The notes beneath the pieces were generated by a model. The model was not told where the DNA came from and searched no databases. It worked only from the letters and a program-made list of their open reading frames with translations. Both the position numbers and the translations under genes were made by a program. Below, one piece after another: positions 2,777 through 47,853 of a DNA stretch of 64,000 nt (within the stretch, counting starts at the first letter, position 1; each line of letters opens with the position of its first letter). Source of the DNA: Escherichia phage Delraymugoa; sequence record OR896825.1; one strand, 5' to 3'.

Positions 2777-5683
2777 ATGGCAGATTTAAGCAGAATCCAA
2801 TTTAAACGTACTAGCACTAAAGGCCGTCGACCTGATGCTGGTACGATGAATCCGGGGGAATTGGCAATCAACCTTGCGGATCAATATCTTCTTACTAAAA
2901 ATGATTCCGGTGCTATTATCAATTTAAGTTGTCCTCCGGTTTATGACAGCGATGTTACAATGGCGGGTAAGGTTAAAGGAAATAATTATATTTTAAGTAA
3001 AACCGCTAATTATTTTGAAGACCAAACCGCGCGAGATCTTAATTATTTTGGTGCGTTTCGACCGAATAATGCTGATGGTTGGTCTAACTTGATTCTGAAC
3101 ATTCCTCATCCCAGCGGTAAAGCACACGGTCGCGGGTTTGAATTTGAATATGGTTCTAGTTCCTCTCAGGTTAAAACCTATGGCTTTGATAAGGATGGTA
3201 ACAAGAGATTCAGCTTTCGCATGTATCACGAAGGTGATAAACCTACCCCATCGGAATTGAACGTTTATAGCAAACAAGAAGTTGACCGCATGTTTGTTAA
3301 AAACGTTAAAATGTCAACTCCTGCTGATGTAAGTAGAGGATATTTCAAAATTGCTACCGCTATGATCCCACAGCAAGGAAGAATGGCATTTATTCGTATC
3401 TATGGTGGTAATGGATATAACGTAAACTATATGGATCAAGTTGACTTTGTAGAAATCGTGATTCGTGGTGGGAATGGAAATCCTAAAGGTGTTAGTATTG
3501 CCGCATATCGACGAAATGCTTTAAATCAGCTTGAAGTATTTGCTATTAATACATCTGGTGATAACTATGATATCTATGTAAAATATGGTCGATACACCGA
3601 TAACGTTATTGTAGAATTTGGAAAAACGGTCGATGTTAATTTAACGGTTCATGATGTTCCGGCTTTTTCGGAAGCAAAACCTGCTGGTACTACCTTTGAA
3701 GGTCGTATTATTACCATGTTCAACACCGAAAACAAAGCAGGAACGTTGATGTTTGATAATAACTCACAAGCAACCTATGATATTGTGAGTCTTAGCAATG
3801 CACCTGATAATAGCCGAAATTATCTGCGTAAATTCCGTAGCAAAGCGAATGAAACAATATGGCATGAAACTGTTCAAGGTGATGTGTATCGTTTGGCTAC
3901 TGGTTCCACCGACCAAAAAGAAGTATTAAAAATTGTTGGTAGTGATGGTTTATTTGTCAATAGACTTCATCTGCAAGGCAATAACGCGATTCGTATGTGG
4001 CGTCCTACTGGTTGTAGTAACTATTTTGAATATATGGATCAGCGAGACGGGGCTAATAAACGTCAAGGGTGGTTTGGTTTTGGTTCTATAGAAACCAACG
4101 ATTTTCAATGGTATAGTGACGAAGGTAAAAACTTTGTTAAGCTAGAAGCAAGTGGTCAAGTATCTTTAAGCGCAGGTGCAACCAAAATTGTATACACTAA
4201 TGGTCAATATGTAGCTGCCAATTCTGATGCATACCGTATGATCTTTGGTAATTATGGTGCATTCTGGCGTAATGACGGCATTAAAGTTTATCTTCTGTCT
4301 ACTGCCGAAAATGATAGATTTGGTGGCTGGAACGGCAACCGACCATTCATTTACGATTTAACAACTGGTAAAGTTACTTTAGGTGGCGACGGTAACGAAG
4401 GCGCATTAGTTCTCGAAAGAGATAGCCGTGCTGCCCGTTTTGTGGGTGACATTTATGTCGGTAACGGAATGTTAACCTTTGATGCCGGACGATTAAATTC
4501 TCGCGATTACTTCCGGTTTAATCATTGGGGTGATAGCAATAACGCGCGTGATAACATCTTACAGCTTGACGATAGCATGGGTGCACACTTCACCACTGAA
4601 CGTACTTTAGCAACTGGTGCGATTAAAACTAAATTCTTCGGTGATTTGGAATCTGCTGGTCAAATTAAATGGGGTAAAGGGACCGCCGCATCTACGTTTA
4701 CTCTACGTGTATGGGGTAACGATAGTCGTAAACAAATATTTGAATGCGGCGATGAAAGCGGGTGGCATTGGTATACCCAACGCGCGGGCGGTCCGGATAC
4801 TTCTGCAATTGAGTTTGCCATCAACGGTACTGTTAAGCCTCAAGCAATTCACACTGGCGGTAATATCACGCTTAACGGTGCTGATATTGAATTTAAACGA
4901 AGCGGTAACAAGCATTTATGGTTTAGAGATCCGAACGGCTTAGAGTTGGGTCTGTTGTACTGCGATGATGCTGGTGTTATGCGTATTCGTGGGGAGAAAT
5001 CGACCGAAGTATGGAAATTCTCAGCAAAACAGATTCATCTGGAAACTGGTACTGCCGGAAATGGTGTAGGCTTGCTTCGTGGTGCTGTAGGTGGTGGCGC
5101 ATGGACTCAATGGCGAGATCGTGGCACTGGCTTGCAGGTTGATTGTCAGCAATCTGAAAACTCAGCGCATAACGTATGGAGAGCTACGCATCAAGGAAAA
5201 TACCACATCGCGGCAATGGGTGTACACGTTCCTGGTGGTACTATCGGAAATGCTATGGTGCGTATTCATGTACACGATGCAACTTTTGACTTTAGCGCAA
5301 CTGGTGATTTCCAAGCAGGTCGTAACGGTAATTTTAACGATGTGTACATTCGTTCTGATGCTCGCCTGAAAATCAATAAGGAAGAGTATAAAGAGAATGC
5401 CACCGATAAAGTTAATCGCTTGACGGTATACACCTATGACAAGGTTAAATCTTTAACCGACCGTACTGTCATTGCTCATGAAGTTGGTATTATTGCTCAG
5501 GATCTTGAGAAAGAATTGCCAGAAGCAGTAACAACCTCGAAGATCGGCGACGGTGATACACCAGAAGAGATCTTAACAATTTCTAACTCTGCTGTCAACG
5601 CTCTTTTAATTAAGGCGTTTCAGGAAATGAGCGAAGAATTGAAAGCCGTTAAAGCTGAACTAGCGGAACTTAAAAAGAATTAA
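2777..5683 (+). CDS. 37: long tail fiber distal subunit gp37-like with C-terminal intramolecular chaperone (peptidase S74-type) domain
   Basis: N-terminus RIQFKR..RP..GELAINL..DSG.II matches gp37; C-terminus has SDARLKINKEEYKENATDKVNRL autocleavage-type motif plus coiled-coil tail. Confidence 0.85.
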   Translation: MADLSRIQFKRTSTKGRRPDAGTMNPGELAINLADQYLLTKNDSGAIINLSCPPVYDSDVTMAGKVKGNNYILSKTANYFEDQTARDLNYFGAFRPNNADGWSNLILNIPHPSGKAHGRGFEFEYGSSSSQVKTYGFDKDGNKRFSFRMYHEGDKPTPSELNVYSKQEVDRMFVKNVKMSTPADVSRGYFKIATAMIPQQGRMAFIRIYGGNGYNVNYMDQVDFVEIVIRGGNGNPKGVSIAAYRRNALNQLEVFAINTSGDNYDIYVKYGRYTDNVIVEFGKTVDVNLTVHDVPAFSEAKPAGTTFEGRIITMFNTENKAGTLMFDNNSQATYDIVSLSNAPDNSRNYLRKFRSKANETIWHETVQGDVYRLATGSTDQKEVLKIVGSDGLFVNRLHLQGNNAIRMWRPTGCSNYFEYMDQRDGANKRQGWFGFGSIETNDFQWYSDEGKNFVKLEASGQVSLSAGATKIVYTNGQYVAANSDAYRMIFGNYGAFWRNDGIKVYLLSTAENDRFGGWNGNRPFIYDLTTGKVTLGGDGNEGALVLERDSRAARFVGDIYVGNGMLTFDAGRLNSRDYFRFNHWGDSNNARDNILQLDDSMGAHFTTERTLATGAIKTKFFGDLESAGQIKWGKGTAASTFTLRVWGNDSRKQIFECGDESGWHWYTQRAGGPDTSAIEFAINGTVKPQAIHTGGNITLNGADIEFKRSGNKHLWFRDPNGLELGLLYCDDAGVMRIRGEKSTEVWKFSAKQIHLETGTAGNGVGLLRGAVGGGAWTQWRDRGTGLQVDCQQSENSAHNVWRATHQGKYHIAAMGVHVPGGTIGNAMVRIHVHDATFDFSATGDFQAGRNGNFNDVYIRSDARLKINKEEYKENATDKVNRLTVYTYDKVKSLTDRTVIAHEVGIIAQDLEKELPEAVTTSKIGDGDTPEEILTISNSAVNALLIKAFQEMSEELKAVKAELAELKKN

Positions 5684-37045: not shown

Positions 37046-37444
37046 TTACGGGTTTACTTCGTGCTCATTTTGAATCTTTAGCATTCTTTCGATAAATTTT
37101 TTCTCGGCTTCCTTGTCGGATGAGTGAGTATACTTCAATCCAATGTAAGCTGTCAAGTATTGTTGCAGAGCATAGACAGTAACAGGATTCTTTGCGGTCT
37201 TTTTGCCGTCGAGATATACCAGATCACCACGAACATCAAACGCAAGTTTACGACGAATCACATCATCAACAAATTTATCTAGGACAAAATACCACTCAAT
37301 ACATTCTATCCCGTGACGGTAGTTCATTACATCGTTATCTTTGATATAGTCAAACGGAATATGACATAATTTACGATTTTGTAGGATGAATAGCATTTGT
37401 TCTTTTAAGCTCATACGTTTCATTCCATCACTTCCCATCAGCAA
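37046..37444 (-). CDS. hypothetical protein (132 aa), rpbA position
   Basis: Occupies the T4 rpbA slot next to gene 45; assignment by synteny only. Confidence 0.4.
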   Translation of the reverse strand: MLMGSDGMKRMSLKEQMLFILQNRKLCHIPFDYIKDNDVMNYRHGIECIEWYFVLDKFVDDVIRRKLAFDVRGDLVYLDGKKTAKNPVTVYALQQYLTAYIGLKYTHSSDKEAEKKFIERMLKIQNEHEVNP

Positions 37445-37820
37445 TTGCGATCAGACGAGTTACTACTACGCTAGCGGCTTCAATCAGCAGTTCATCAGTG
37501 TCAATCTGATAACCCTTTTCGAGAATATCTTTACCTCGAATAGTTTTAGCACCTTTAGCAATTGAATCATCGTAATACTTGCGCATTGCCGCGATCCATT
37601 CTTTTTGCACCATATCATCAATATGCGCGTACAGTTCAAAGCGTGCTTGCTGCGGGATAACCTTCATTTTAGCTTTCTCGCTTTCTGGCATTTGTAGTAC
37701 CCACGCTTTACGGATCTTGTTCATTGCTCGGTCAAATTCGAGACTGGTTTTCTTGTTCTGAATGTCTGCTACAGTAATTTTAGCCAGGTTTGCGGAAGTA
37801 GTCATAATATTAATCTCCAA
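37428..37820 (-). CDS. hypothetical protein (130 aa)
   Basis: ORF in array. Confidence 0.45.
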   Translation of the reverse strand: MEINIMTTSANLAKITVADIQNKKTSLEFDRAMNKIRKAWVLQMPESEKAKMKVIPQQARFELYAHIDDMVQKEWIAAMRKYYDDSIAKGAKTIRGKDILEKGYQIDTDELLIEAASVVVTRLIAIADGK

Positions 37821-37835
37821 AATAAAATCAGTATA

Positions 37836-38066
37836 TCACGTTCTAAAGTTTGTTGCAACCCCAGCATCAGGGTAATCAAGTTTATCAAAGTTGGGGACCA
37901 GCATAAACTCATGATGACGGCAAGACAACATTTTTGTTATGTCTTCATCGCTGTATATGCTGTTTTTCATATCCCACATACTAACTACATATTCTTCACC
38001 GGAATATAGATTGATTAAGGTATACAATTCTAACTCCGGCTGCGTTACTCTGTCAAATGTTAACAT
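37836..38066 (-). CDS. hypothetical protein (76 aa)
   Basis: ORF in array. Confidence 0.4.
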   Translation of the reverse strand: MLTFDRVTQPELELYTLINLYSGEEYVVSMWDMKNSIYSDEDITKMLSCRHHEFMLVPNFDKLDYPDAGVATNFRT

Positions 38067-39735
38067 TCATTTCAGTGAATCGCCCACGTTTAACCATCTT
38101 GAGATGACGGCTAAAATCATCAGGGTTATGGTCACGATGGCTGATAATATACACGTTATCATCTAACTCGTCAATGATGGAATCAAGTGCTTTTACGCCT
38201 TGAACGTCCGTAGCCCCATCATAAATTTCGTCGAGTACCAACAAAGAAATATTAGTACCAGATACTTTACCAGCAACATCACGCCATGTAAAGAGCATCG
38301 CAAGGTCAATACGTGCTTTTTCGCCTTGACTGAATGATGTATACGAAAACGATTCACGCCCCCGTGATTTGATTGTTTCGTTAAACTCTTCATCTAGCGT
38401 AAAGATATAATCCGCTTCCATGATATCTAGATAATACGCAATCCGATCATTGAAATATGGAATATATTTCTTGACGATAGACGCCTTAACACCGGAATCC
38501 TTCAACATTTCTGTTACAAATCCACGATGATATTTTTCAAGAACTAGCTTTGATTTTTCATTAGTAATCTCTACCAGTTCGTGTTCCAGTTTAGCAAGTT
38601 CTTCGGAATTGTCAACCCTTTCTTTTTGTAATTCCTGAATTGCTTTCTGGATCTGTTTAGCCCGACCTACAGATGCCGTTAAATTCGCTCTCTGTGACTC
38701 TATAGCGCGTTTAATTTCCAAGACCTTAGTTTGTGCTGTCTGGAAAGAATTGGCTTTCTCTGCGTATTCTACGCGTTTCTCGTCAATAAGAGACAGTTTA
38801 TGTTCGGCTTGTGCTTTTTGTTCGCGTACAGCCTGATCATTACCCTGAATGATCGGTTGTGTGCACGTAGGACAGATCCCGCCTTTCTCGTGCATATGGA
38901 TAACACGGTCAAAGTTCTGGATCTGCTCACCAATCTGTGCGATAGCAGTATTAATTTTAGCCAATGCTGCGCTAGGATCTTCCGGCATAACAACAGCCAA
39001 TAGCTCATCGGTCAAGCGCGTTTCTTCGGCTTTAAACGCTTTAGCTGATTCTACTTCTTTCTCGTACATATTCTGCAAACGCTGTAGATTCTCGGCACTC
39101 GCCTTGCTAGCGTCTTCTATGTACTTTTTATGAGTGTTGATTTGTTGCTGAACGTGATTAGCTTTCATTTCCTGCATTTGGATATTCTGGGTAATCTCTC
39201 GCACATACGCTTTATTCAGTTTATCCATTTCGCCTAGCGTAGCAATATCAAGCAAATCCTCGACCAGTTTACGGCGACCCGCTGCCGGAAGACTCATAAA
39301 CGGAACATAACCAGCAGTGCCTAAAACAACGATCTGTTTAAAGCTGGCTAGGTTCATGCCTATGATACCTTCAAAATATTCCTGAAAGTCTTTGGTGCTT
39401 GCGCTCTCGTCGATCTTTTGACCGTCGCGATGCACTTCGAATACTTCCGGTTTTTGACCACGTTTGATATAAAACTCTTTCCCGTCCAGTTCAAACCAGA
39501 CTTCGACTAACAGTTTCTTTTTGTTGACGCTGTTAATCAATTGGCCTTTCTTGATACTACGAAACGGTTTACCGAACAACACAAAGCAAAGCGCCTCGAT
39601 CATTGTTGATTTACCAGCACCGTTAACACCAGTGATTAGTGTCTTTTTGAATCCGTCTAGCTGAATCTCTACAGGTTCAGCACCCACGCTCATTATATTT
39701 TGATAGCGCAAGGTTTTAAAATTTAACTTTGCCAT
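38053..39735 (-). CDS. 46: recombination endonuclease subunit gp46 (Rad50/SbcC-like)
   Basis: N-terminal Walker A GVNGAGKST, coiled-coil middle with CPTC zinc hook, C-terminal signature; start moved to ATG (MAKLNFK) giving 560 aa as in T4. Confidence 0.9.
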   Translation of the reverse strand: MAKLNFKTLRYQNIMSVGAEPVEIQLDGFKKTLITGVNGAGKSTMIEALCFVLFGKPFRSIKKGQLINSVNKKKLLVEVWFELDGKEFYIKRGQKPEVFEVHRDGQKIDESASTKDFQEYFEGIIGMNLASFKQIVVLGTAGYVPFMSLPAAGRRKLVEDLLDIATLGEMDKLNKAYVREITQNIQMQEMKANHVQQQINTHKKYIEDASKASAENLQRLQNMYEKEVESAKAFKAEETRLTDELLAVVMPEDPSAALAKINTAIAQIGEQIQNFDRVIHMHEKGGICPTCTQPIIQGNDQAVREQKAQAEHKLSLIDEKRVEYAEKANSFQTAQTKVLEIKRAIESQRANLTASVGRAKQIQKAIQELQKERVDNSEELAKLEHELVEITNEKSKLVLEKYHRGFVTEMLKDSGVKASIVKKYIPYFNDRIAYYLDIMEADYIFTLDEEFNETIKSRGRESFSYTSFSQGEKARIDLAMLFTWRDVAGKVSGTNISLLVLDEIYDGATDVQGVKALDSIIDELDDNVYIISHRDHNPDDFSRHLKMVKRGRFTEMNVNI

Positions 39736-41142: not shown

Positions 41143-42168
41143 CTAACTTTTTGCGCTATTTACCTCGGCTAAAAGTTCATCAGAAATACGCTTGACCGCC
41201 GCAAGTTCTTCCGGTTCTAGGTTTTGTTCTTCCAGATATTCATAGACCATCTGAATAGTGCTTTTAACTTCAATAACACCTGTTTCCTGTGATGCGCTAC
41301 TCTCCAGCTTATGGACCACTTTTAGCTTGTGTACAACGGCCTCTAACGCGCTTTCTAACTTAGTTAACCCATTATCAGCGACCGTTGCAATAAGACGCAC
41401 ACTAAGCCCCTTAAAGCGTTCTACATCGATTTTATCATCTGACGGGTAAGTGATACGCACATGATAAGTTTTGTCATTCTGGATAAACTCCTTTTTGTGT
41501 GTATCGGTATCGAATACCCAAAACCCACGCGGATCGTTTTCGTCACCCGCCGTTAGTGTGTATGGTGTACCTATATACGTTACGTTACCGCCATCGCTGA
41601 TAGTATGAAAGTGACCAGAAAACACTTCACGGTATTTCTTGAGGAAGTCCGCGCTATAACCTTCGGATTTTAGTCCTTTATAGAAATAGTAGCCAGACAA
41701 TTCCCAATGGCCTACACAATATTCGCTGAATGAGTTTTGAATAAACTCTAAAATCTCTGATTTATTGTCATCACAAAACCACGGGAACAGATCAAATGAT
41801 ACACCATCAAAGGTAACTGTTTCCGGTTTATCGATAACCTTAATGCAATCATACTGGCTTAACACTTCACGCGGTGCGTTAGGCTGGATCTTGTTTCGTT
41901 TAAACATATCATGATTCCCGACCGTGGTATAACAAGTAATACTAGCCTCTTCCAGTAACGGGATGATCTTAGTACGGTTAAATTTCATGGTTTCATGGGT
42001 AATTGCTTTTCGGCAATCAAACCAATCCCCTGTTTGAATCCATGTCTTAATATTATGCTCTTTGGAGTATTCAACCGCTTTCTTGATGGTGTCAAGAATA
42101 TACTCATGCACCCACGGATCATCGCCACCGATACCAGTATGCAGATCACCTAAAAGCAAAATTTTCAT
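41143..42168 (-). CDS. 47: recombination endonuclease subunit gp47 (Mre11/SbcD-like phosphoesterase)
   Basis: MKILLLGDLHTG, GNHD, GHxH phosphoesterase motifs; 341 aa; synteny. Confidence 0.9.
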   Translation of the reverse strand: MKILLLGDLHTGIGGDDPWVHEYILDTIKKAVEYSKEHNIKTWIQTGDWFDCRKAITHETMKFNRTKIIPLLEEASITCYTTVGNHDMFKRNKIQPNAPREVLSQYDCIKVIDKPETVTFDGVSFDLFPWFCDDNKSEILEFIQNSFSEYCVGHWELSGYYFYKGLKSEGYSADFLKKYREVFSGHFHTISDGGNVTYIGTPYTLTAGDENDPRGFWVFDTDTHKKEFIQNDKTYHVRITYPSDDKIDVERFKGLSVRLIATVADNGLTKLESALEAVVHKLKVVHKLESSASQETGVIEVKSTIQMVYEYLEEQNLEPEELAAVKRISDELLAEVNSAKS

Positions 42169-42206
42169 AGTCTCTTCCTCTCTTCGTTTTCGATGCTCTC
42201 ACTATA

Positions 42207-42236
42207 TCACAGAAAAATAAAAAGGGAAACCCCTTT
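42207..42236 (-). terminator. rho-independent terminator upstream of gene 47
   Basis: AAAGGG-GUUU-CCCUUU hairpin followed by UUAUUUUUCUG. Confidence 0.45.
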
Positions 42237-42259
42237 CAGAGTCTCCCTTATAAAAGCCA

Positions 42260-42547
42260 TTACAGCATACTTAATACCGTTTGCCGTGTACTAATCCACA
42301 TAGCAGAAAGCAGTTCTGGCGTGTGTGGCTGTTTGTAGATATCACGTAACTTTCCGATAGCGTAGATATACGCATCACGGTTATCATCGATGATAGCTTG
42401 TTCAGCCCACAGCTTAAGGCGTGCAATCTCTCGCGAGTTCTTACGCAAGATCTTTTCCGCTTTCTTAGAGGCTTTCGCCTCTAGTTCTGCTTGTACTTTG
42501 TCTACTTCATTCACTACAATCTGGTCATGTTGTTCATCGTAAGTCAT
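42260..42547 (-). CDS. hypothetical protein (95 aa)
   Basis: ORF in the slot where T4 carries alpha-gt. Confidence 0.45.
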   Translation of the reverse strand: MTYDEQHDQIVVNEVDKVQAELEAKASKKAEKILRKNSREIARLKLWAEQAIIDDNRDAYIYAIGKLRDIYKQPHTPELLSAMWISTRQTVLSML

Positions 42548-42548
42548 A

Positions 42549-42782
42549 TTATTTTCCTTCTGGGATATAGTCGATGATTAAAGAAAATTCATCTTCTGAT
42601 ACATTATAGCTATGTGAGATTGTACCCGTAAAGACCTCAAGATCCGGTGATTTGATATTGCACGGATCGATAATCACCGGAACGCCGCAATCTCTCAAAA
42701 ATAATTTGGCGAAATACGGCACGAGGTCAGTTTCAAACTCTGCTTCTTCCAGCAAACGGGAAATGTTAATTTTCAATCTCAT
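42549..42782 (-). CDS. hypothetical protein (77 aa)
   Basis: ORF in array. Confidence 0.4.
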
Positions 42783-43299
42783 AAAATTGGTCCAGGCTAG
42801 GCAATTCCTCGGTCAATACATCTTCAACCTTTGGCGCTTTCGGTTTATTGACCGATTCCTCGTAGTTGTTGATTTTATCGTAAATGTCCTGTATGAATGC
42901 CTCATCAGCAATCTGGCACATATCAGCGTCGCGTTCGTCATATACATGATGCACAAAATATTTGTATTTTGCGGCTGTCGCTGTTCTCTCTTTTTTAATG
43001 CGCTGTACAAAAGCATTAAAGCACGCTTGCGTGATGTAAGCATGAGGATTTTTATACTTTGTCTCGTCAAAATTAATCAAACCCTTGACCGCCGCTTCGA
43101 TTCCGTCGTCGATCATTTCTTCGCGCCATGTTTGACTATAACCAGAAAAGTTAAAACGACGTGATAGATTTTTAGAGATTTGCATAATTGCTAGGCCGAT
43201 TTGATCGCTCATTGGAACTTGCCGACCTTCTGCTGCAATTTGTTGTTTCCAACGGCAAATTTCTTCGTAAAGCTCTTTATTGTTTACATAATCAGACAC
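42766..43299 (-). CDS. 55: late transcription sigma factor gp55
   Basis: [57 protein letters not shown] near-identical to T4 gp55; GTG start with GAGGG Shine-Dalgarno. Confidence 0.95.
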
Positions 43300-43339
43300 T
43301 TCGCACCCTCGCTATTATTTAGGAAATAACCCTTTCGGG

Positions 43340-44809
43340 CTATTCCCCATTGCCATTATACTTTCTTTGCTTAGTTATCCACACTCTAACCATCTCTACA
43401 GATTCGCCGTCAGACGGATCAAGAGTTTTTCCCTTTTTCTTCATGCGGTACTTAAATCCGTTAAATCTTGCATTCTCTTGCTCGTTAAAATCGAACATCT
43501 TTTTAAATGATTTTCGCCCTTTACGCTCACCACATTCTAGCGGAATCATTCGGTCTGTTATTACATTGGCATTAGGTAGAAACGTTTTTAGATAATCTAC
43601 CAACGCCCAATCAGGAACATATAGATTAACATTCTCCTTGCTCTCGTTGTCTCTCAGGTTACAACGCAAACATAATTGAAATGCTGGTTCCAGATAATCA
43701 GACACATGACGCGCTTTCAAAAACTCATTTGTCGGGAGATCACAACTATTAGCAAGACCTTTTAAAATATCAATCTCCCATCGTTGAGGGTTAAAGCTGA
43801 ACATCACAGCAACATTTTTATGATGAATGTAAGAGTTAAGACCATAAGACCCGTAAGGTATCCGCTCACCAATACCATTTGTACACGCTTCACGGTCCCG
43901 ATTCACGGTATAAATGAAGTCATCGCCACATTCATTTTTAACCATATCAACAAGACGTTCAAAGGTATTGTTTGTTTCTGACTGGTGACGCGACCATCGT
44001 TCAGAGTCCGTCATAAGGATGATATTAACTCTATCTGTATTTTTATACTCTTTGAAATATAGTCTGGATTCTAGCGCACTCGGAACAAAATCGCAATTTG
44101 CATAGTATCGTAGATACTTCCCACTATATGTATCAAAGAGATTTGCACATGCTATCGTAACCTTTTTAAAGTCTCCCCACGTACCGTGTTTGTTATCGTT
44201 CAAGAAAACAATTTTCGACCCATTCTTCCGGTGTCCTTCGTTATGTTTTACCATAACGTTGATTTTCTTCTCTAATAACGCCTCATAAAGCCCTCTAAGA
44301 GAAGAATCGATCATATCAGTACCATCCTTCGCACTTTCTATCTTTTCTTTGATAGCGGCCTTCTCAGAGTCTTTTAGAACTAAGTTCTGTAGGCATTCCG
44401 ATTCGTCGGCGATTGGTTCGCAATGCTTCGTGATAAGTTCAAGATTAGACTTAAACGGATACTCATTAAATTCAACCAGTTGAGGAACTTCATCAATGTA
44501 AAGAGCATATTCACCAAACATTTTTGAACGTTCCATATTAGATAACGCTGTATGTGTAATGAATATCACATCAGCACCGTCTTTAACTGATTGCATTATC
44601 GACGCTTGCACTGTCTTAAGGCTTCTTAGTCTTGTGCTATCAATCAAGACAGCACGACCGCCCATTCTTTTAAACTTATTGTAAGATTGTTCACTTAAAA
44701 CACGAGATGGCGAAGCAATAACCGCTTTTTCTTTTGTCTCTAGGACGTGGGAAAGTATAGCATCAGTTTTCCCTGCCGCTGGCAATGCGATTAATGTTTC
44801 AATCTTCAT
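43340..44809 (-). CDS. P-loop NTPase with helicase-like N-terminal domain (489 aa), function unknown
   Basis: Walker A LPAAGKTD, motif Ia-like VIASPSRV, Walker B-like YIDEV in first 110 aa; C-terminal 370 aa without recognisable motifs; no T4 counterpart at this position. Confidence 0.6.
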   Translation of the reverse strand: MKIETLIALPAAGKTDAILSHVLETKEKAVIASPSRVLSEQSYNKFKRMGGRAVLIDSTRLRSLKTVQASIMQSVKDGADVIFITHTALSNMERSKMFGEYALYIDEVPQLVEFNEYPFKSNLELITKHCEPIADESECLQNLVLKDSEKAAIKEKIESAKDGTDMIDSSLRGLYEALLEKKINVMVKHNEGHRKNGSKIVFLNDNKHGTWGDFKKVTIACANLFDTYSGKYLRYYANCDFVPSALESRLYFKEYKNTDRVNIILMTDSERWSRHQSETNNTFERLVDMVKNECGDDFIYTVNRDREACTNGIGERIPYGSYGLNSYIHHKNVAVMFSFNPQRWEIDILKGLANSCDLPTNEFLKARHVSDYLEPAFQLCLRCNLRDNESKENVNLYVPDWALVDYLKTFLPNANVITDRMIPLECGERKGRKSFKKMFDFNEQENARFNGFKYRMKKKGKTLDPSDGESVEMVRVWITKQRKYNGNGE

Positions 44810-45096
44810 TAGAAACCCTTACGTCGTGCTTTCTGGCATTTCTTGATCATTTTATCAGAAATTTCGCGCTTAGGTGCAATCTCTTTCACACCGAAAGCAC
44901 TAATGCCAAATTCAGAGAGAATATATTCAACCAACAATTCACGCACACGCGCTTTACCGATATTCACGCCGTTATTTTTCAGATATGTCTGGCCTTCGAC
45001 TTGCATCAGATCTAAATCTGCGTCGGTAATATTGATTTCTTCCATGCGCCCAAATCGAGAATAAACCATGTGTGCGATTGCATTGTGTACTAACAT
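44809..45096 (-). CDS. hypothetical protein (95 aa)
   Basis: Start moved to ATG (MLVHNAI) with GAGGA Shine-Dalgarno. Confidence 0.45.
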   Translation of the reverse strand: MLVHNAIAHMVYSRFGRMEEINITDADLDLMQVEGQTYLKNNGVNIGKARVRELLVEYILSEFGISAFGVKEIAPKREISDKMIKKCQKARRKGF

Positions 45097-45117
45097 AATA
45101 TATTCCTCACTCAAGAA

Positions 45118-45276
45118 TTACTTAATGATACTTACTTTACCAGATCCGTGACAATGAGCACAACACCCATCACCACGCAATCCTGTTCCGTTACAGTGTT
45201 TACACTTCTTCAACGGTAAAGCCATTATAGCAAATAAAGCAATAATGAATACCGAAACTAAATTCTCAATAATCAT
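45118..45276 (-). CDS. small membrane-anchored zinc-ribbon protein (52 aa)
   Basis: Below the track threshold; hydrophobic N-terminus then CKHC..CCAHC; overlaps upstream stop by 11 nt. Confidence 0.35.
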   Translation of the reverse strand: MIIENLVSVFIIALFAIMALPLKKCKHCNGTGLRGDGCCAHCHGSGKVSIIK

Positions 45277-45535
45277 AAATCGCCCTCAGTTCTTTATAGC
45301 CTCCAATGTGCTCGTTGTCAATGAATATCTGGGGGTATACAAATCGGAGGCTCTTTGAGTTCAGCCTCCCCGCCAGTTCTTCAATCATATCACGGTCGGG
45401 AATAATGTCAACCCCGACCTGCTTGAATACTGGTTTAAGTGTATACGGAATACCCAGATCATCCAGTAGCTTCATTGCACTAATACAACCATAACAATGA
45501 TAAGCCTCTTTCGGTATGCCGTATATCTCGATCAT
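45266..45535 (-). CDS. glutaredoxin/thioredoxin-like protein (NrdC/NrdH family)
   Basis: CYGC active site and C-terminal PQIFIDNEHIGGYKEL as in T4 nrdC-type thioredoxin; sits at the T4 nrdH position. Confidence 0.75.
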   Translation of the reverse strand: MIEIYGIPKEAYHCYGCISAMKLLDDLGIPYTLKPVFKQVGVDIIPDRDMIEELAGRLNSKSLRFVYPQIFIDNEHIGGYKELRAIYDY

Positions 45536-46008
45536 TTTTCAGCCTTTAATCTTTCTAGTTCTTCTTCCAGTTCCTTGATCCGTTGGTCACGTTCAAAGTC
45601 ACGCTGCAACTTAGTGGCGAATACTCGTTTAAACTGATTGTAATCATCGATTTTAAACACTTCTTCTTCGCCATAGCGACGCACAGAAACTTCGTAGTTA
45701 TTGAAGAATTGTTGCATCATTGCTTCGGATGATAGCTCTGCTGATACCACTTTAAAATATTGATCTTCTGTAGGCGAAAACCAATTACAAGCATAAAGAT
45801 AAACCTTTTCATTGTCTGGACACTGGTAAGCCTTACCATCGATTTCAATCACAGAAACATATTCAGGTATACTAGATGAATCAATAGCTAAGACTTTAAA
45901 CGCACGGTCCCCGATAAACTCGGAGATCACACGATTCGCATCACTGGTTGCAAATGCTTTACGCGCTTGTTCGTTTTTCCACTGATAGGTCATGCCAACA
46001 ACAAACAT
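45532..46008 (-). CDS. paralog family A member (158 aa; one WKxE..DRKFF-type domain plus coiled coil)
   Basis: MTYQWKNEQARKAF...VIEIDGKAY pattern shared with next three genes; start moved to ATG with GAGG Shine-Dalgarno. Confidence 0.5.
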   Translation of the reverse strand: MFVVGMTYQWKNEQARKAFATSDANRVISEFIGDRAFKVLAIDSSSIPEYVSVIEIDGKAYQCPDNEKVYLYACNWFSPTEDQYFKVVSAELSSEAMMQQFFNNYEVSVRRYGEEEVFKIDDYNQFKRVFATKLQRDFERDQRIKELEEELERLKAEK

Positions 46009-46009
46009 A

Positions 46010-46834
46010 TTACCAACCTCGCTCTTTACCAATCAAAAATTCAACTTCACGACGTTTAATGTCTTCTTGAAGGTCTTTAATCTTCTGGCGATCTTGCATG
46101 ATTTCATCCATCTTGTCAAGTGCCGCAATGAAATCATCGAAACGTTCAAAGGTTTTACCTTCATTTGCTTCGCCAAATTTAACCATTGTCAGGCCGTAAC
46201 GACTACTAAACAGACGTTTCAACTGTCCAACGATTTTAGAATCAGTGGTTATAACTTCCAATTCTTCTACTTCACGAAAGAATTTTCTATCAGAATCAAT
46301 AAACCAGCTAGTTCCTTTATGGTCTCTATCTTCGGTTGCGCTCATTAGAGTATGGTCTTTACCATCAATTTCAATTACATCAATTTGCCCACATGGACGA
46401 ACATTTTTAACAGTAAAAGGTCTATAATTTATTGCTCGTGCAATAACATAATTAAGGTTAGATACGTTTTCAGCATAATGGCAGAAGTCGGTCATAGCAT
46501 TCACATCTTTCCAAGTATAAGTTTTACCAACTTCCCATTTCTGGGGAACTTCTTCAACTTCACGAAAGAATTTTCGATCGAATGGACTAAAGAAATATGT
46601 TGCAGTCCAAATGTCTTTTCCTGTAGCAGTTTTCGCCGTATGATAAACACCGTCTAGCTCTATTGCATTAATCCAACCGTTACCCTCGATCTCGATGATG
46701 GTAAATGGCTTGTCACCAATAGCTGCACTAATATCGCTGTTAAGCGGAGAAAGAACACCTTCTCCGTTAGTAATAAACTCAGTTTTAGCGTTTTCATCTT
46801 TCCAAGTGTAAGTTTTACCAATTTCCCATTTCAT
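46010..46834 (-). CDS. paralog family A member with internal tandem duplication (274 aa)
   Basis: Two copies of WE.GKTYTWKD...IEIDG...DRKFFREVEE within one ORF. Confidence 0.55.
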   Translation of the reverse strand: MKWEIGKTYTWKDENAKTEFITNGEGVLSPLNSDISAAIGDKPFTIIEIEGNGWINAIELDGVYHTAKTATGKDIWTATYFFSPFDRKFFREVEEVPQKWEVGKTYTWKDVNAMTDFCHYAENVSNLNYVIARAINYRPFTVKNVRPCGQIDVIEIDGKDHTLMSATEDRDHKGTSWFIDSDRKFFREVEELEVITTDSKIVGQLKRLFSSRYGLTMVKFGEANEGKTFERFDDFIAALDKMDEIMQDRQKIKDLQEDIKRREVEFLIGKERGW

Positions 46835-46846
46835 AATATATTCCCC

Positions 46847-47311
46847 TTAACCGATTTTATCAAGTTCGTTTAATGCTTTCTCAGCTTCCTGTATAGCTTG
46901 CACTCTTTCCGGCATTTTGTCAAGAAAATCTTTCAACTCTTCAAAACTGGAGATATGACGCAAGGCGTTAGCACCGATAGCCGCATGTGATTTGCATTCA
47001 AAGCGGATTTTATAATTATCCATCGCCAATTTGAGAAGATCAATTAATTTAGATTCTTCTGGAATAATAATTTCTTCAAATCTGCTACGGTCATGATCCA
47101 GAAACCAACAAGATAGACCTACATCGGTTGAACTCATATAAGTTCCATCATGAAGATAAACAGACCGCACGTATCCTTTTTTCGCATCAACCGACGCAAC
47201 TTTAAACGGTAATCGCAGATATTTCAAATAATCAACATCATACCATTTAAAAAATTGGTTTGCATCTTTTACATCTTTCCACGCATAGGTCTTACCAGCT
47301 TCCCATTTCAT
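46847..47311 (-). CDS. paralog family A member (154 aa)
   Basis: MKWEAGKTYAWKDVKDANQF N-terminus; start moved to that ATG. Confidence 0.5.
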   Translation of the reverse strand: MKWEAGKTYAWKDVKDANQFFKWYDVDYLKYLRLPFKVASVDAKKGYVRSVYLHDGTYMSSTDVGLSCWFLDHDRSRFEEIIIPEESKLIDLLKLAMDNYKIRFECKSHAAIGANALRHISSFEELKDFLDKMPERVQAIQEAEKALNELDKIG

Positions 47312-47315
47312 AATA

Positions 47316-47843
47316 TCATCTCTCATTTTTGATACGTGATTCTAATTGGATCATACGGTCGCGCGTTTGTTTGTATTCTCGGATAGCACCGATCCGGCTA
47401 GGCATACCATCCAGTACGCTCTTAATACCTTCTAGGGTAGTAATTTTGGCAATGCTATTATGTAACCCCATCTTATCGATCAACTGAATGTCGTAGGCTT
47501 CCATAAGCAGACCCAGGCGTTCTAAAGTTAGGTCTTCTTCTTTTTCTTCTGAATCTGGAATCTTAGGTTCAATAGTAACTTCGGTAAAGAAACGACGCTC
47601 ACCCGACCAAAACCACACACCAGAACAACCAATAGGGGATTCTTTTAACGTCATAGAGTCGAAATCACTACCAATAATAGTAATTTCTCTAACATCACCA
47701 TCATCGTCAAGGTCTTCTACCCTAAACGGGCGACCAGCCAACAAGTCAACAATACATCTGTTAATAGACGACGAAAATTTAGTCAGTTCGGCTTTCGACG
47801 CTTCGCATTCAATCTTGTAAGTTTTACCAACTTCCCATTCCAT
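47316..47843 (-). CDS. paralog family A member (175 aa)
   Basis: MEWEVGKTYK N-terminus with GAGGTGA Shine-Dalgarno; ..GERRFFTEV motif. Confidence 0.5.
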   Translation of the reverse strand: MEWEVGKTYKIECEASKAELTKFSSSINRCIVDLLAGRPFRVEDLDDDGDVREITIIGSDFDSMTLKESPIGCSGVWFWSGERRFFTEVTIEPKIPDSEEKEEDLTLERLGLLMEAYDIQLIDKMGLHNSIAKITTLEGIKSVLDGMPSRIGAIREYKQTRDRMIQLESRIKNER

Positions 47844-47853
47844 AATAATCACC

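What the first reader, a model, noticed from the sequence alone, without database searches (positions are those of the whole stretch)
43340..44809. 489-aa P-loop ATPase with helicase-like N-domain at the gp55 boundary, with no T4 counterpart
The first 110 residues contain Walker A (LPAAGKTD), a motif Ia-like segment (VIASPSRV) and a Walker B-like motif (YIDEV), reminiscent of SF2-helicase or type III restriction 'res' N-terminal domains. The remaining 370 residues show no helicase domain 2 motifs. The gene is translationally coupled to the downstream ORF (TAATG overlap) and sits where T4 has only small 55.x genes. It is a candidate novel NTP-driven enzyme in nucleic acid or anti-defence function.
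Basis: partly seen in the sequence, partly recalled or inferred. Interest (0 to 1): 0.55.

Follow-up and report, generated by a model that had tools for sequence, protein, structure and literature searches.

The report
Uncharacterised XPD/DinG-like phage helicase
The 489-residue gene next to the late sigma factor gene of this RB49-type phage encodes a complete two-lobed superfamily-2 helicase, most like the XPD/DinG DNA-repair helicases but without their iron-sulfur domain; it belongs to a large, never-studied phage protein family, so it is a real but only moderately surprising find.

Summary
The ORF is real (43340..44809, minus strand, 489 aa) and is 100% identical to RB49ORF044c, annotated "hypothetical protein". 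The three N-terminal motifs are present and conserved.

- **Second helicase lobe.** The C-terminal 370 residues do contain one. An AlphaFold model (pLDDT 87.6) shows two RecA-like lobes. Across 134 relatives at about 20% identity, only motifs I, II, V and VI are invariant: K14, D106/E107, G323/N325 and Q378/R382/R386.
- **TAATG overlap.** It couples the gene to the upstream 55.2 homolog, not to the downstream gene 55.

The family (PHROG 2467, function unknown) has at least 766 clusters at E<1e-10. Its members lie in T4-like phages outside the T-even group, in jumbo phages and on a rhizobial megaplasmid. T4 has only the small gene 55.1 in this slot.

My best reading is an early-expressed, ATP-driven DNA helicase that assists phage replication, recombination or repair. 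The biological role is inferred, not shown. I rate it a new variant of a known kind, of moderate interest.

The parts
43340..44809 (-). Complete ORF of the 489-aa SF2 helicase (RB49ORF044c ortholog; PHROG 2467); stop codon at 43340-43342
   Evidence: ORF list and sequence. 100% identity to RB49 AAQ15319.1. PHROG 2467 over the full length, E 8.8e-175.
44765..44788 (-). Motif I / Walker A, residues 8-15 (ALPAAGKT)
   Evidence: P10, G13, K14 and T15 are invariant in 42 homologs. K14 is invariant in 134 distant relatives.
44687..44725 (-). Motif Ia, residues 29-41 (AVIASPSRVLSEQ); the wide-family consensus is IAxPTxxLxxQ
   Evidence: This segment aligns to motif Ia of DEAD-box proteins, reverse gyrase, PriA and Mfd in a profile search of PDB sequences.
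44543..44569 (-). Motif Ib-like strand, residues 81-89 (VIFITHTAL)
   Evidence: V81, F83, T85 and L89 are invariant in the T4-like set. The wide-family consensus is VxxITHxAL. The model has a strand at 81-85.
44483..44503 (-). Motif II / Walker B, residues 103-109 (LYIDEVP)
   Evidence: D106 and E107 are invariant in both alignments. Coordinates checked against the sequence.
44165..44482 (-). Family-specific insert between motifs II and III, residues 110-215 (strands plus three helices); it sits where XPD/DinG have the Arch domain
   Evidence: Secondary structure of the model. Insert length is conserved at 88-128 aa in 134 relatives. XPD and DinG are the best structural matches, with 316-371 aligned residues. 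The Arch domain's position in XPD is from my own knowledge.
44120..44164 (-). Motif III-like strand, residues 216-230 (KVTIACANLFDTYSG)
   Evidence: T218 and N223 are nearly invariant and G230 is invariant in the T4-like set. A222 is nearly invariant in the wide set. The model has a strand at 216-221.
43550..44053 (-). Second RecA-like lobe, residues 253-420
43829..43861 (-). Motif V, residues 317-327 (IPYGSYGLNSY; family consensus HGLNxY)
   Evidence: G323 and N325 are invariant in 134 distant relatives.
43652..43696 (-). Motif VI, residues 372-386 (YLEPAFQLCLRCNLR); the arginines are candidate arginine fingers
   Evidence: Q378, R382 and R386 are invariant in 134 distant relatives. Coordinates checked against the sequence.
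43343..43528 (-). Basic C-terminal three-helix tail, residues 428-489 (pI 10.1)
   Evidence: Helices at 435-438, 443-458 and 468-484. E445 and W477 are invariant. 17 of 62 residues are K or R. Many other family members carry a clear HTH at the equivalent position, but no homology to those HTH tails was detected.
44809..45114 (-). Upstream gene, homolog of T4 55.2; its stop codon overlaps the helicase ATG (TAATG)
   Evidence: 42% identity to T4 gp55.2, E 9e-20. PHROG 1475. A 55.2 homolog lies upstream on the same strand in 28 of 29 related Straboviridae loci.
42766..43299 (-). Downstream gene 55 (late sigma factor); a neighbour, not part of the unit
   Evidence: PHROG 234, E 4e-63. In RB43 the helicase is followed by gene 34 instead.

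Best explanation
The gene encodes a complete, probably active superfamily-2 helicase or translocase.

**Anatomy.** ATP would bind between two RecA-like lobes: motifs I and II on lobe 1, and motifs V and VI with the arginine fingers on lobe 2. The layout is that of XPD/Rad3/DinG helicases. It has an insert of about 105 residues between motifs II and III, where those enzymes carry the Arch domain, but it lacks their iron-sulfur domain. A conserved, strongly basic three-helix tail follows the core and probably adds nucleic-acid or partner binding.

**Mechanism (inferred).** By analogy with its nearest structural relatives, it most likely moves 5'->3' along single-stranded DNA. That would let it unwind duplexes or branched intermediates such as D-loops, R-loops and stalled forks.

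**Role (inferred).** It is co-transcribed and translationally coupled with the 55.2 homolog, inside the early nrd-55-47-46 DNA-metabolism cluster. I read it as an accessory helicase for phage DNA replication, recombination or repair.

**Shown:** the ORF, the motif conservation, the predicted fold and its structural neighbours, the gene context and the phyletic spread. **Inferred:** enzymatic activity, DNA rather than RNA as substrate, polarity, and the biological role.
For: - The ORF and its motifs are present.
- In 134 relatives at about 20% identity, the only invariant columns are K14, D106/E107, G323/N325 and Q378/R382/R386. That is the pattern expected of a working SF2 ATPase.
- The AlphaFold model has pLDDT 87.6 and pTM 0.77 and shows two alpha/beta lobes.
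- The top 17 Foldseek PDB hits are all CasDinG, DinG, XPD or Rad3.
- The insert between motifs II and III is conserved in length, 88-128 aa.
- The N-lobe profile matches DNA and RNA SF2 helicases in PDB sequences. Pfam DEAD scores just above its threshold.
- The context is conserved early DNA-metabolism genes: nrdD, nrdG, nrdH, 55.2, 55, 47 and 46.
- Other family members carry a C-terminal HTH DNA-binding domain in place of the tail, and one long form hits PriCT_1, which points to DNA rather than RNA.
- The family is large and conserved: 766 clusters at E<1e-10.
Against: - There is no sequence-level link to XPD/DinG. Pfam DEAD_2 and Helicase_C_2 are not matched by the query or by any of 88 relatives. 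hhalign against E. coli DinG and YoaA aligns only motifs I-Ia.
- No iron-sulfur domain is present.
- Lobe 2 is undetectable by sequence against the PDB, so its identification rests on a predicted structure plus conservation.
- TM-scores to XPD/DinG are only 0.41-0.52.
- I could not align the insert with the Arch domain separately.
- The phage type already encodes other helicases according to the literature (gp41, Dda, UvsW; PMC2993671), so the specific need for this one is unknown.
- No experiment on any family member was found.
Confidence: 0.55

Rival explanations
1. Replication-initiator helicase. The protein would be site-specific: its basic tail binds a phage origin or another specific site and the SF2 motor opens it. 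Herpesvirus UL9 and the phage T5 'D2' origin-binding helicase are proposed to work this way.
For: - The tail position holds a clear HTH in many relatives: Pfam HTH_23 in 10, HTH_28 in 6 and HTH_29 in 6 of 88 members.
- Two of 88 relatives give weak Herpes_ori_bp hits, best E 1.4e-3.
- The VZV origin-binding protein is a Foldseek BFVD hit, E 1.8e-6.
- Long-form relatives carry an extension of about 350 aa with a DxD-type motif, and one has a PriCT_1 hit at E 1.2e-4. That resembles helicase-primase fusions.
- T5 D2 sets the precedent of an SF2 helicase plus HTH proposed to act as an initiator (PMC3632103).
Against: - The family HMM does not recognise the T5 protein: E 0.017, Walker A region only.
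- The T4-like tail shows no detectable homology to the HTH tails of other members; hhalign probability is 0.2%.
- Homeodomain hits for the tail are sub-threshold, E 0.14-0.5.
- No iterons or repeats above chance lie in or around the gene.
Confidence: 0.17
2. Partner of gp55.2 in host takeover or DNA-topology control. The helicase and the small protein encoded immediately upstream would act together on host topoisomerase I or on supercoiled or R-loop-containing DNA. In T4 that small protein inhibits E. coli topoisomerase I.
For: - The two genes share a TAATG stop/start overlap.
- A 55.2 homolog lies upstream on the same strand in 28 of 29 Straboviridae loci and directly abuts the helicase in 21.
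- The pair stays together in RB43, where gene 55 is not the downstream neighbour.
- T4 gp55.2 inhibits topoisomerase I (PMC4396842).
Against: - T4 keeps 55.2 without the helicase.
- Family members outside the Straboviridae have no 55.2-like neighbour.
- In seven loci other genes are inserted between the two.
- The adjacency can be explained by the conserved synteny of this region.
- No interaction data exist.
Confidence: 0.1
3. RNA helicase or RNP remodeller of the DEAD-box kind, acting on phage or host transcripts.
For: - Pfam DEAD is the only model above threshold.
- The best PDB sequence hits of the N-lobe profile are DEAD-box proteins: DDX52 at E 4.6e-7, then Mss116.
Against: - Motif II is DEVP rather than DEAD, and motif VI is QxxxRxxxR rather than HRxGRxxR. 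DEAD-box proteins also carry a Q motif and a SAT motif III (own knowledge); I saw neither in the sequence.
- DEAD-box proteins have no large insert between motifs II and III (own knowledge).
- The whole-protein structural neighbours are DNA helicases.
- Relatives carry dsDNA-type HTH tails.
Confidence: 0.07
4. Anti-defence or defence effector. The helicase would counter a host immune system or exclude competing phages; this is the first reader's anti-defence suggestion.
For: - The gene is accessory: it is absent from T-even type phages and lies in a variable region.
- Relatives give weak sub-threshold PADLOC hits to type IV CasDinG, Cas3 and PbeA, confined to the Walker A region.
Against: - The query has no significant PADLOC hit; the best is E 0.0088 to an unrelated model.
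- The gene sits at a conserved position within DNA-metabolism genes across several Straboviridae genera.
- There is no nuclease or sensor domain.
- No literature links the family to defence.
Confidence: 0.06
5. One reading: a half-helicase P-loop domain fused to about 370 residues of a novel, non-helicase enzyme.
For: Sequence methods alone see only the N-lobe.
Against: - The model has a second RecA lobe.
- XPD and DinG align over 316-371 residues.
- The motif V and VI residues are invariant.
Confidence: 0.03

Closest known systems
XPD/Rad3/DinG family of SF2 5'->3' DNA helicases (archaeal XPD, E. coli DinG and YoaA)
   Different: This protein has no 4Fe-4S domain; the segment from motif Ia to motif II is only about 60 aa with at most one Cys. 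It gives no DEAD_2 or Helicase_C_2 Pfam match. Only motifs I-Ia align by hhalign. Motif II is DEVP, not DEAH. At 489 aa it is much smaller than the 550-720 aa of those enzymes. It has an extra basic C-terminal tail.
CasDinG (Csf4) of type IV-A CRISPR systems
   Same: CasDinG structures give the best and third-best Foldseek PDB hits, 8s35_M at E 2.7e-10 and 8e2w at 2.7e-9. Relatives give weak TIGR03117 (type IV CRISPR-associated Csf4) and PADLOC typeIV_DinG hits around Walker A. From my own knowledge, CasDinG is a DinG-type helicase that also lacks a functional iron-sulfur cluster.
   Different: There is no CRISPR context, since this gene is phage-encoded. The sequence hits are far below threshold and confined to the P-loop. 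The size and the accessory domains differ.
Herpesvirus UL9 and phage T5 'D2' origin-binding SF2 helicases (Pfam PF02399)
   Same: All are viral SF2 helicases with an added DNA-binding module encoded among early replication genes. HTH modules occur in many members of this family. See PMC3632103.
   Different: The family HMM does not recognise T5.108 (E 0.017). The query has no PF02399 match. In T5 the HTH lies N-terminal to the core, whereas here the extra module is C-terminal. UL9 is not among the top structural hits.
T4 UvsW (the SF2 helicase of T4-like phages)
   Different: The families are different. UvsW is not detected by sequence, and only one lobe aligns well (126-162 residues). UvsW belongs to the shared T4-like DNA-replication and repair gene set (PMC2993671), whereas this gene is accessory.

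Membership tests
Superfamily 2 helicases (core) | Motif I (Walker A, GxGKT) and motif II (Walker B, DExx) on a RecA-like lobe | tested here: met
   AAGKT at residues 11-15 and DEVP at 106-109. K14, D106 and E107 are invariant in 134 relatives. Pfam DEAD scores 27.4 bits against a cut-off of 26.
Superfamily 2 helicases (core) | Second RecA-like lobe carrying motifs IV-VI, including arginine fingers | tested here: met
   The model has an alpha/beta lobe at about residues 253-420. XPD and DinG align over 316-371 residues. G323/N325 and Q378/R382/R386 are invariant. Caveat: this lobe is not detectable by sequence (Helicase_C in 2 of 88 relatives at E 0.023; no PDB sequence hit).
Superfamily 2 helicases (core) | Nucleic-acid-stimulated NTPase and unwinding or translocation activity | not testable with these tools
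   This needs purified protein.
XPD/Rad3/DinG family | 4Fe-4S cluster domain (four Cys) inserted in lobe 1 between motifs Ia and II | tested here: not met
   That segment has a median length of 60 aa. It holds at most one Cys in all 42 T4-like homologs and four or more Cys in only 1 of 134 relatives. The family definition is from PMC6300356.
XPD/Rad3/DinG family | Arch domain inserted in lobe 1 after motif II | tested here: inconclusive
   An insert of about 105 aa (residues 110-215) lies at that position and is conserved in length across the family. The long XPD and DinG alignments are consistent with this. I could not compare the insert on its own with an Arch domain. The position of the Arch domain in XPD is from my own knowledge.
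XPD/Rad3/DinG family | Sequence-profile membership (Pfam DEAD_2 PF06733, Helicase_C_2 PF13307) | tested here: not met
   Neither model matches the query, and neither is among the listed families matched by the 88 relatives. hhalign against DinG and YoaA aligns only motifs I-Ia.
XPD/Rad3/DinG family | Closest fold among solved structures | tested here: met
XPD/Rad3/DinG family | 5'->3' translocation on ssDNA | not testable with these tools
   This needs polarity assays.
UL9 / T5 D2 origin-binding helicases (PF02399) | Profile match to Herpes_ori_bp, or homology to T5.108 | tested here: not met
   The query gives no hit. Two of 88 relatives hit at a best E of 1.4e-3. The family HMM against T5.108 gives E 0.017, and hhalign aligns 48 columns around Walker A.
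UL9 / T5 D2 origin-binding helicases (PF02399) | Sequence-specific DNA-binding domain | tested here: inconclusive
   The basic three-helix tail is conserved. It has no detectable homology to the HTH tails of relatives, and its homeodomain hits are only sub-threshold.
DEAD-box RNA helicases | The DEAD form of motif II and the HRxGRxxR form of motif VI | tested here: not met
   Motif II is DEVP and motif VI is QLCLRCNLR.
PHROG 2467 (phage protein family, function unknown) | Full-length profile match | tested here: met
   E 8.8e-175 over residues 1-489 of the protein and positions 8-502 of the 502-position profile.

The most novel reading that the evidence does not exclude
The helicase and the translationally coupled gp55.2 form a two-protein topology module. 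In T4, gp55.2 inhibits E. coli topoisomerase I. Here gp55.2 would capture host topoisomerase I, and the SF2 motor would use it or counteract its loss. Together they would resemble a split, reverse-gyrase-like or RecQ-Topo III-like machine that remodels supercoiling or R-loops on phage DNA.
Probability: 0.05. Interest if true: 0.8.

Novelty: new variant of a known kind. Interest (0 to 1): 0.4.

Why it matters
T4-type phages are the reference system for DNA replication and recombination. Yet a whole branch of them carries an extra, conserved helicase that T4 lacks and that nobody has studied. That branch includes RB49, RB43, Aeromonas phages 25/44RR/65, and T4-like phages of Proteus, Cronobacter and Erwinia.

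The gene belongs to a large family, at least 766 clusters at 50% identity. This family appears to be a minimal XPD/DinG-like motor without an iron-sulfur cluster. Elsewhere the same core is fused to HTH domains or to an extension of about 350 residues that may be primase-like.

Characterising it would do two things. It would add a compact model for the XPD-type translocation mechanism. It would also show what extra DNA transaction these phages need. It would not overturn any current view.

Tried and rejected
- **Sequence searches of the PDB** with the single protein, the T4-like profile and a lobe-2-only profile found nothing useful. The wide profile found only generic SF2 N-lobes.
- **NCBIfam and PADLOC** gave no meaningful hits for the query, and only P-loop-level hits for relatives.
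- **hhalign of the family profile** against single sequences of E. coli DinG and YoaA and of T5 D2 and D10 aligned only motifs I-Ia. This does not discriminate between families.
- **Is the T4-like tail an HTH?** A PDB profile search gave sub-threshold homeodomain hits. Pfam gave nothing coherent. hhalign against the HTH tails of relatives gave 0.2% probability. Not demonstrated.
- **Iterons or an origin near the gene.** Repeats and promoter or terminator matches are at chance level.
- **Link to cytosine modification.** I rejected the idea that the gene tracks unmodified-cytosine phages, because Aeromonas phages 44RR, 31 and 25 have gene 42 (PMC2993671) and also carry the helicase.
- **Context of distant members** (wastewater phage contig, Atu_ph07, a 572-kb contig, S. 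meliloti pSymB) showed no recurrent informative neighbour.
- **Other attempts.** Two further word-index homolog searches added almost nothing. The AFDB50 fold library was unavailable. The 'DprA-like' annotation of the upstream gene in Aeromonas phage 25 could not be verified by a PDB sequence search.
Full report
**1. The observation**

The window holds an ATG-started ORF of 489 codons on the minus strand at 43340..44809. Its product is 100% identical to RB49ORF044c (AAQ15319.1, "hypothetical protein") of Escherichia phage RB49, genus Krischvirus. The window is a close RB49 relative rather than RB49 itself. It lacks the HNH endonuclease gene that RB49 has between a-gt.4 and gene 47.

They are not chance. 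In 42 homologs down to 31% identity, P10, G13, K14, T15, S33, D106 and E107 are invariant.

The TAATG overlap is real (44807-44811), but it joins the ORF to the gene upstream of it on the coding strand (44809..45114). The downstream gene 55 starts 40 nt after the stop codon.

**2. The rest of the protein is a helicase too**

An AlphaFold2 model built on the 42-sequence alignment is confident, with mean pLDDT 87.6 and pTM 0.77. It shows four parts:
- a first alpha/beta lobe, residues 1-109 and 216-252;
- an insert of about 105 residues at 110-215;
- a second alpha/beta lobe, about residues 253-420;
- a three-helix tail at 428-489.

A profile search of 1.84 billion cluster representatives found 1330 relatives at E<1e-3 and 766 at E<1e-10. 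In an alignment of 134 of them, at about 20% identity to the query, only eight columns are invariant:
- K14 (motif I);
- D106 and E107 (motif II);
- G323 and N325 (motif V, consensus HGLNxY);
- Q378, R382 and R386 (motif VI, consensus YQxxxRTSxR).

That is the signature of a working SF2 ATPase site formed between two RecA lobes. A profile of lobe 2 alone finds no PDB relative, and Pfam Helicase_C is hit by only 2 of 88 relatives at E 0.023.

**3. Which kind of SF2 helicase**

The insert between motifs II and III lies where XPD/DinG carry the Arch domain. The XPD position is from my own knowledge. The insert's length is conserved across the family at 88-128 aa.

The defining iron-sulfur domain of the XPD family (PMC6300356) is absent. 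The segment between motifs Ia and II is only about 60 aa, with at most one cysteine in all 42 T4-like homologs. No XPD-type Pfam model is matched by the query or by 88 relatives. hhalign against E. coli DinG and YoaA aligns only motifs I-Ia.

So the protein resembles XPD/DinG in layout, but I cannot file it as a member of that family. By sequence it is simply a generic SF2 helicase:
- Pfam DEAD scores 27.4 bits against a cut-off of 26.
- ResIII is matched by 39 of 88 relatives.
- The N-lobe profile hits DEAD-box proteins, reverse gyrase, PriA, Mfd and UvrB.

**4. The family**

The query matches PHROG 2467 (unknown function) over its full length at E 8.8e-175, and more weakly PHROG 31024. In cultured phages, 242 records have a homolog:
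- Krischvirus;
- RB43-like phages;
- Aeromonas phages 25, 44RR, 31 and 65;
- T4-like phages of Proteus, Morganella, Serratia, Erwinia, Cronobacter, Citrobacter, Enterobacter, Klebsiella and Yersinia.

None is a T-even type phage. More distant members occur in several other places:
- Pseudoalteromonas phage PH357;
- the jumbo phages Atu_ph07 and phiRSL1;
- a wastewater phage contig;
- a 572-kb contig with phage-like genes;
- Sinorhizobium megaplasmids.

There are two size classes. The short forms, about 470-550 aa, end either in an obvious HTH or in a basic GRPK...AERQxxYRxRxK motif. Pfam HTH_23, HTH_28 and HTH_29 are matched by 10, 6 and 6 of 88 members.

The long forms, about 750-850 aa, add roughly 350 residues:
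- Their conserved motifs are LDxDxGD, RxR, GxDxSK and FYLP.
- One of 15 hits PriCT_1 at E 1.2e-4.
- This suggests, but does not prove, a primase-like module. A profile search of PDB sequences found nothing.

The T4-like tail is conserved and basic, with pI 10.1. Homology to the HTH tails of other members could not be shown: hhalign probability is 0.2%, and homeodomain hits are sub-threshold.

**5. Context**

The gene lies in the early DNA-metabolism cluster nrdD-nrdG-nrdH-55.2-[helicase]-55-47-46. T4 has the 87-aa gene 55.1 in this slot.

The upstream gene is a true 55.2 homolog, 42% identical to T4 gp55.2 at E 9e-20. In T4, gp55.2 inhibits E. coli topoisomerase I (PMC4396842).

A 55.2 homolog lies upstream on the same strand in 28 of 29 related loci, and it abuts or overlaps the helicase in 21. 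The pair persists in RB43, where gene 34 rather than gene 55 follows.

Three facts weaken the case for a functional link:
- T4 keeps 55.2 alone.
- Members outside the Straboviridae have no 55.2-like neighbour.
- Other genes are inserted between the pair in seven loci. In the Aeromonas phage 25/44RR group the inserted gene is annotated "DprA-like", an annotation I could not verify.

The link is therefore suggestive, not established. No repeats or promoter or terminator signals above chance mark the locus.

**6. Mechanism and rivals**

Most likely (0.55) this is an ATP-driven DNA helicase or translocase with XPD/DinG-like mechanics, meaning 5'->3' movement on ssDNA. It would serve phage replication, recombination or repair early in infection.

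The rivals are:
- a site-specific initiator helicase like UL9 or T5 D2 (0.17). The T5 protein is not a family member (E 0.017), and UL9 is not a top structural hit;
- a functional partner of gp55.2 in topology control (0.10);
- an RNA helicase (0.07);
- an anti-defence or defence effector (0.06);

**7. What was already known**

Nolan et al. 2006 already listed RB49ORF044c with a marginal DEAD/DEAH match at E 0.069 (PMC1524935). I found no functional study of any family member.

**8. Verdict**

This is a real gene and a real, complete helicase. It belongs to a large uncharacterised family with an XPD/DinG-like layout but no iron-sulfur domain. I rate it a new variant of a known kind, with interest 0.4.

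Noticed in passing
window 45532-47852 (minus strand): ORFs 45532..46032, 46010..46834, 46847..47326 and 47316..47852: Four consecutive paralogous genes between nrdG and nrdH (RB49ORF048c-051c). All open with a W(E/K)xGKTYxWK-type module, and the 274-aa one holds two copies. They match PHROG 5347 strongly and 'goF mRNA metabolism modulator' PHROGs weakly. This looks like a locally amplified gene family of unknown function.
   Followed up: partly
window 45118-45276 (minus strand): A 52-aa ORF with an N-terminal hydrophobic helix followed by KCKHCNGTGLRGDGCCAHCHGSG, that is, two CxxCxGxG-like zinc-knuckle motifs of the DnaJ type. It matches PHROG 3931, function unknown.
   Followed up: no
window 44809-45114 (minus strand): A homolog of T4 gp55.2, the E. 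coli topoisomerase I inhibitor, translationally coupled to the helicase. The 55.2-helicase pair is conserved across Straboviridae genera and survives the rearrangement seen in RB43 (PMC4396842).
   Followed up: yes
window 42168-42260, compared with L001 8641-9195 (RB49): The window lacks the HNH/AP2 homing-endonuclease gene (RB49ORF040c) that RB49 carries between a-gt.4 and gene 47. The window is therefore a close relative of RB49 rather than RB49 itself.
   Followed up: no
Relatives P0065, P0076, P0077, P0084, P0087, P0089, P0090, P0100, P0102 and others; locus L035 8001-10508; L036 5995-8283: Long-form family members (about 750-850 aa) carry a C-terminal extension of about 350 aa. Its conserved motifs are LDxDxGD, RxR, GxDxSK and FYLP, and one member hits PriCT_1 at E 1.2e-4. 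This may be an SF2-helicase plus primase-like fusion with the helicase at the N-terminus, the reverse of the usual primase-helicase domain order (own knowledge).
   Followed up: partly
L014, L015 and L016 at 3429-4004; L032 at 3432-4004 (Aeromonas phage 25/44RR group): In these phages a gene of about 190 aa, annotated 'DprA-like DNA recombination-mediator protein', is inserted between 55.2 and the helicase. It overlaps the helicase start by 4 nt. A PDB sequence search could not confirm the annotation.
   Followed up: partly
L041 7974-9440 (Sinorhizobium meliloti M270 pSymB); also S. fredii and S. meliloti BL225C megaplasmids: A 488-aa ORF that clearly belongs to the family (family HMM E 2e-70) lies on rhizobial megaplasmids. 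It lies in a stretch for which the plasmid collection lists no annotated gene.
   Followed up: partly
window 43317-43335 (minus strand), between the helicase stop codon and gene 55: A small GCCC-GAAA-GGGT hairpin (a GNRA tetraloop) sits immediately after the helicase stop codon and before the GAGGG ribosome-binding site and GTG start of gene 55. It may be an RNA-stability or processing element.
   Followed up: no
H61, Klebsiella phage phi1_146015 (PP889466.1) 37245-38504: One GenBank record annotates the ortholog as 'DNA primase'; every other listed record that has an annotation calls it a hypothetical protein. Nothing in the short form supports a primase function.
   Followed up: no
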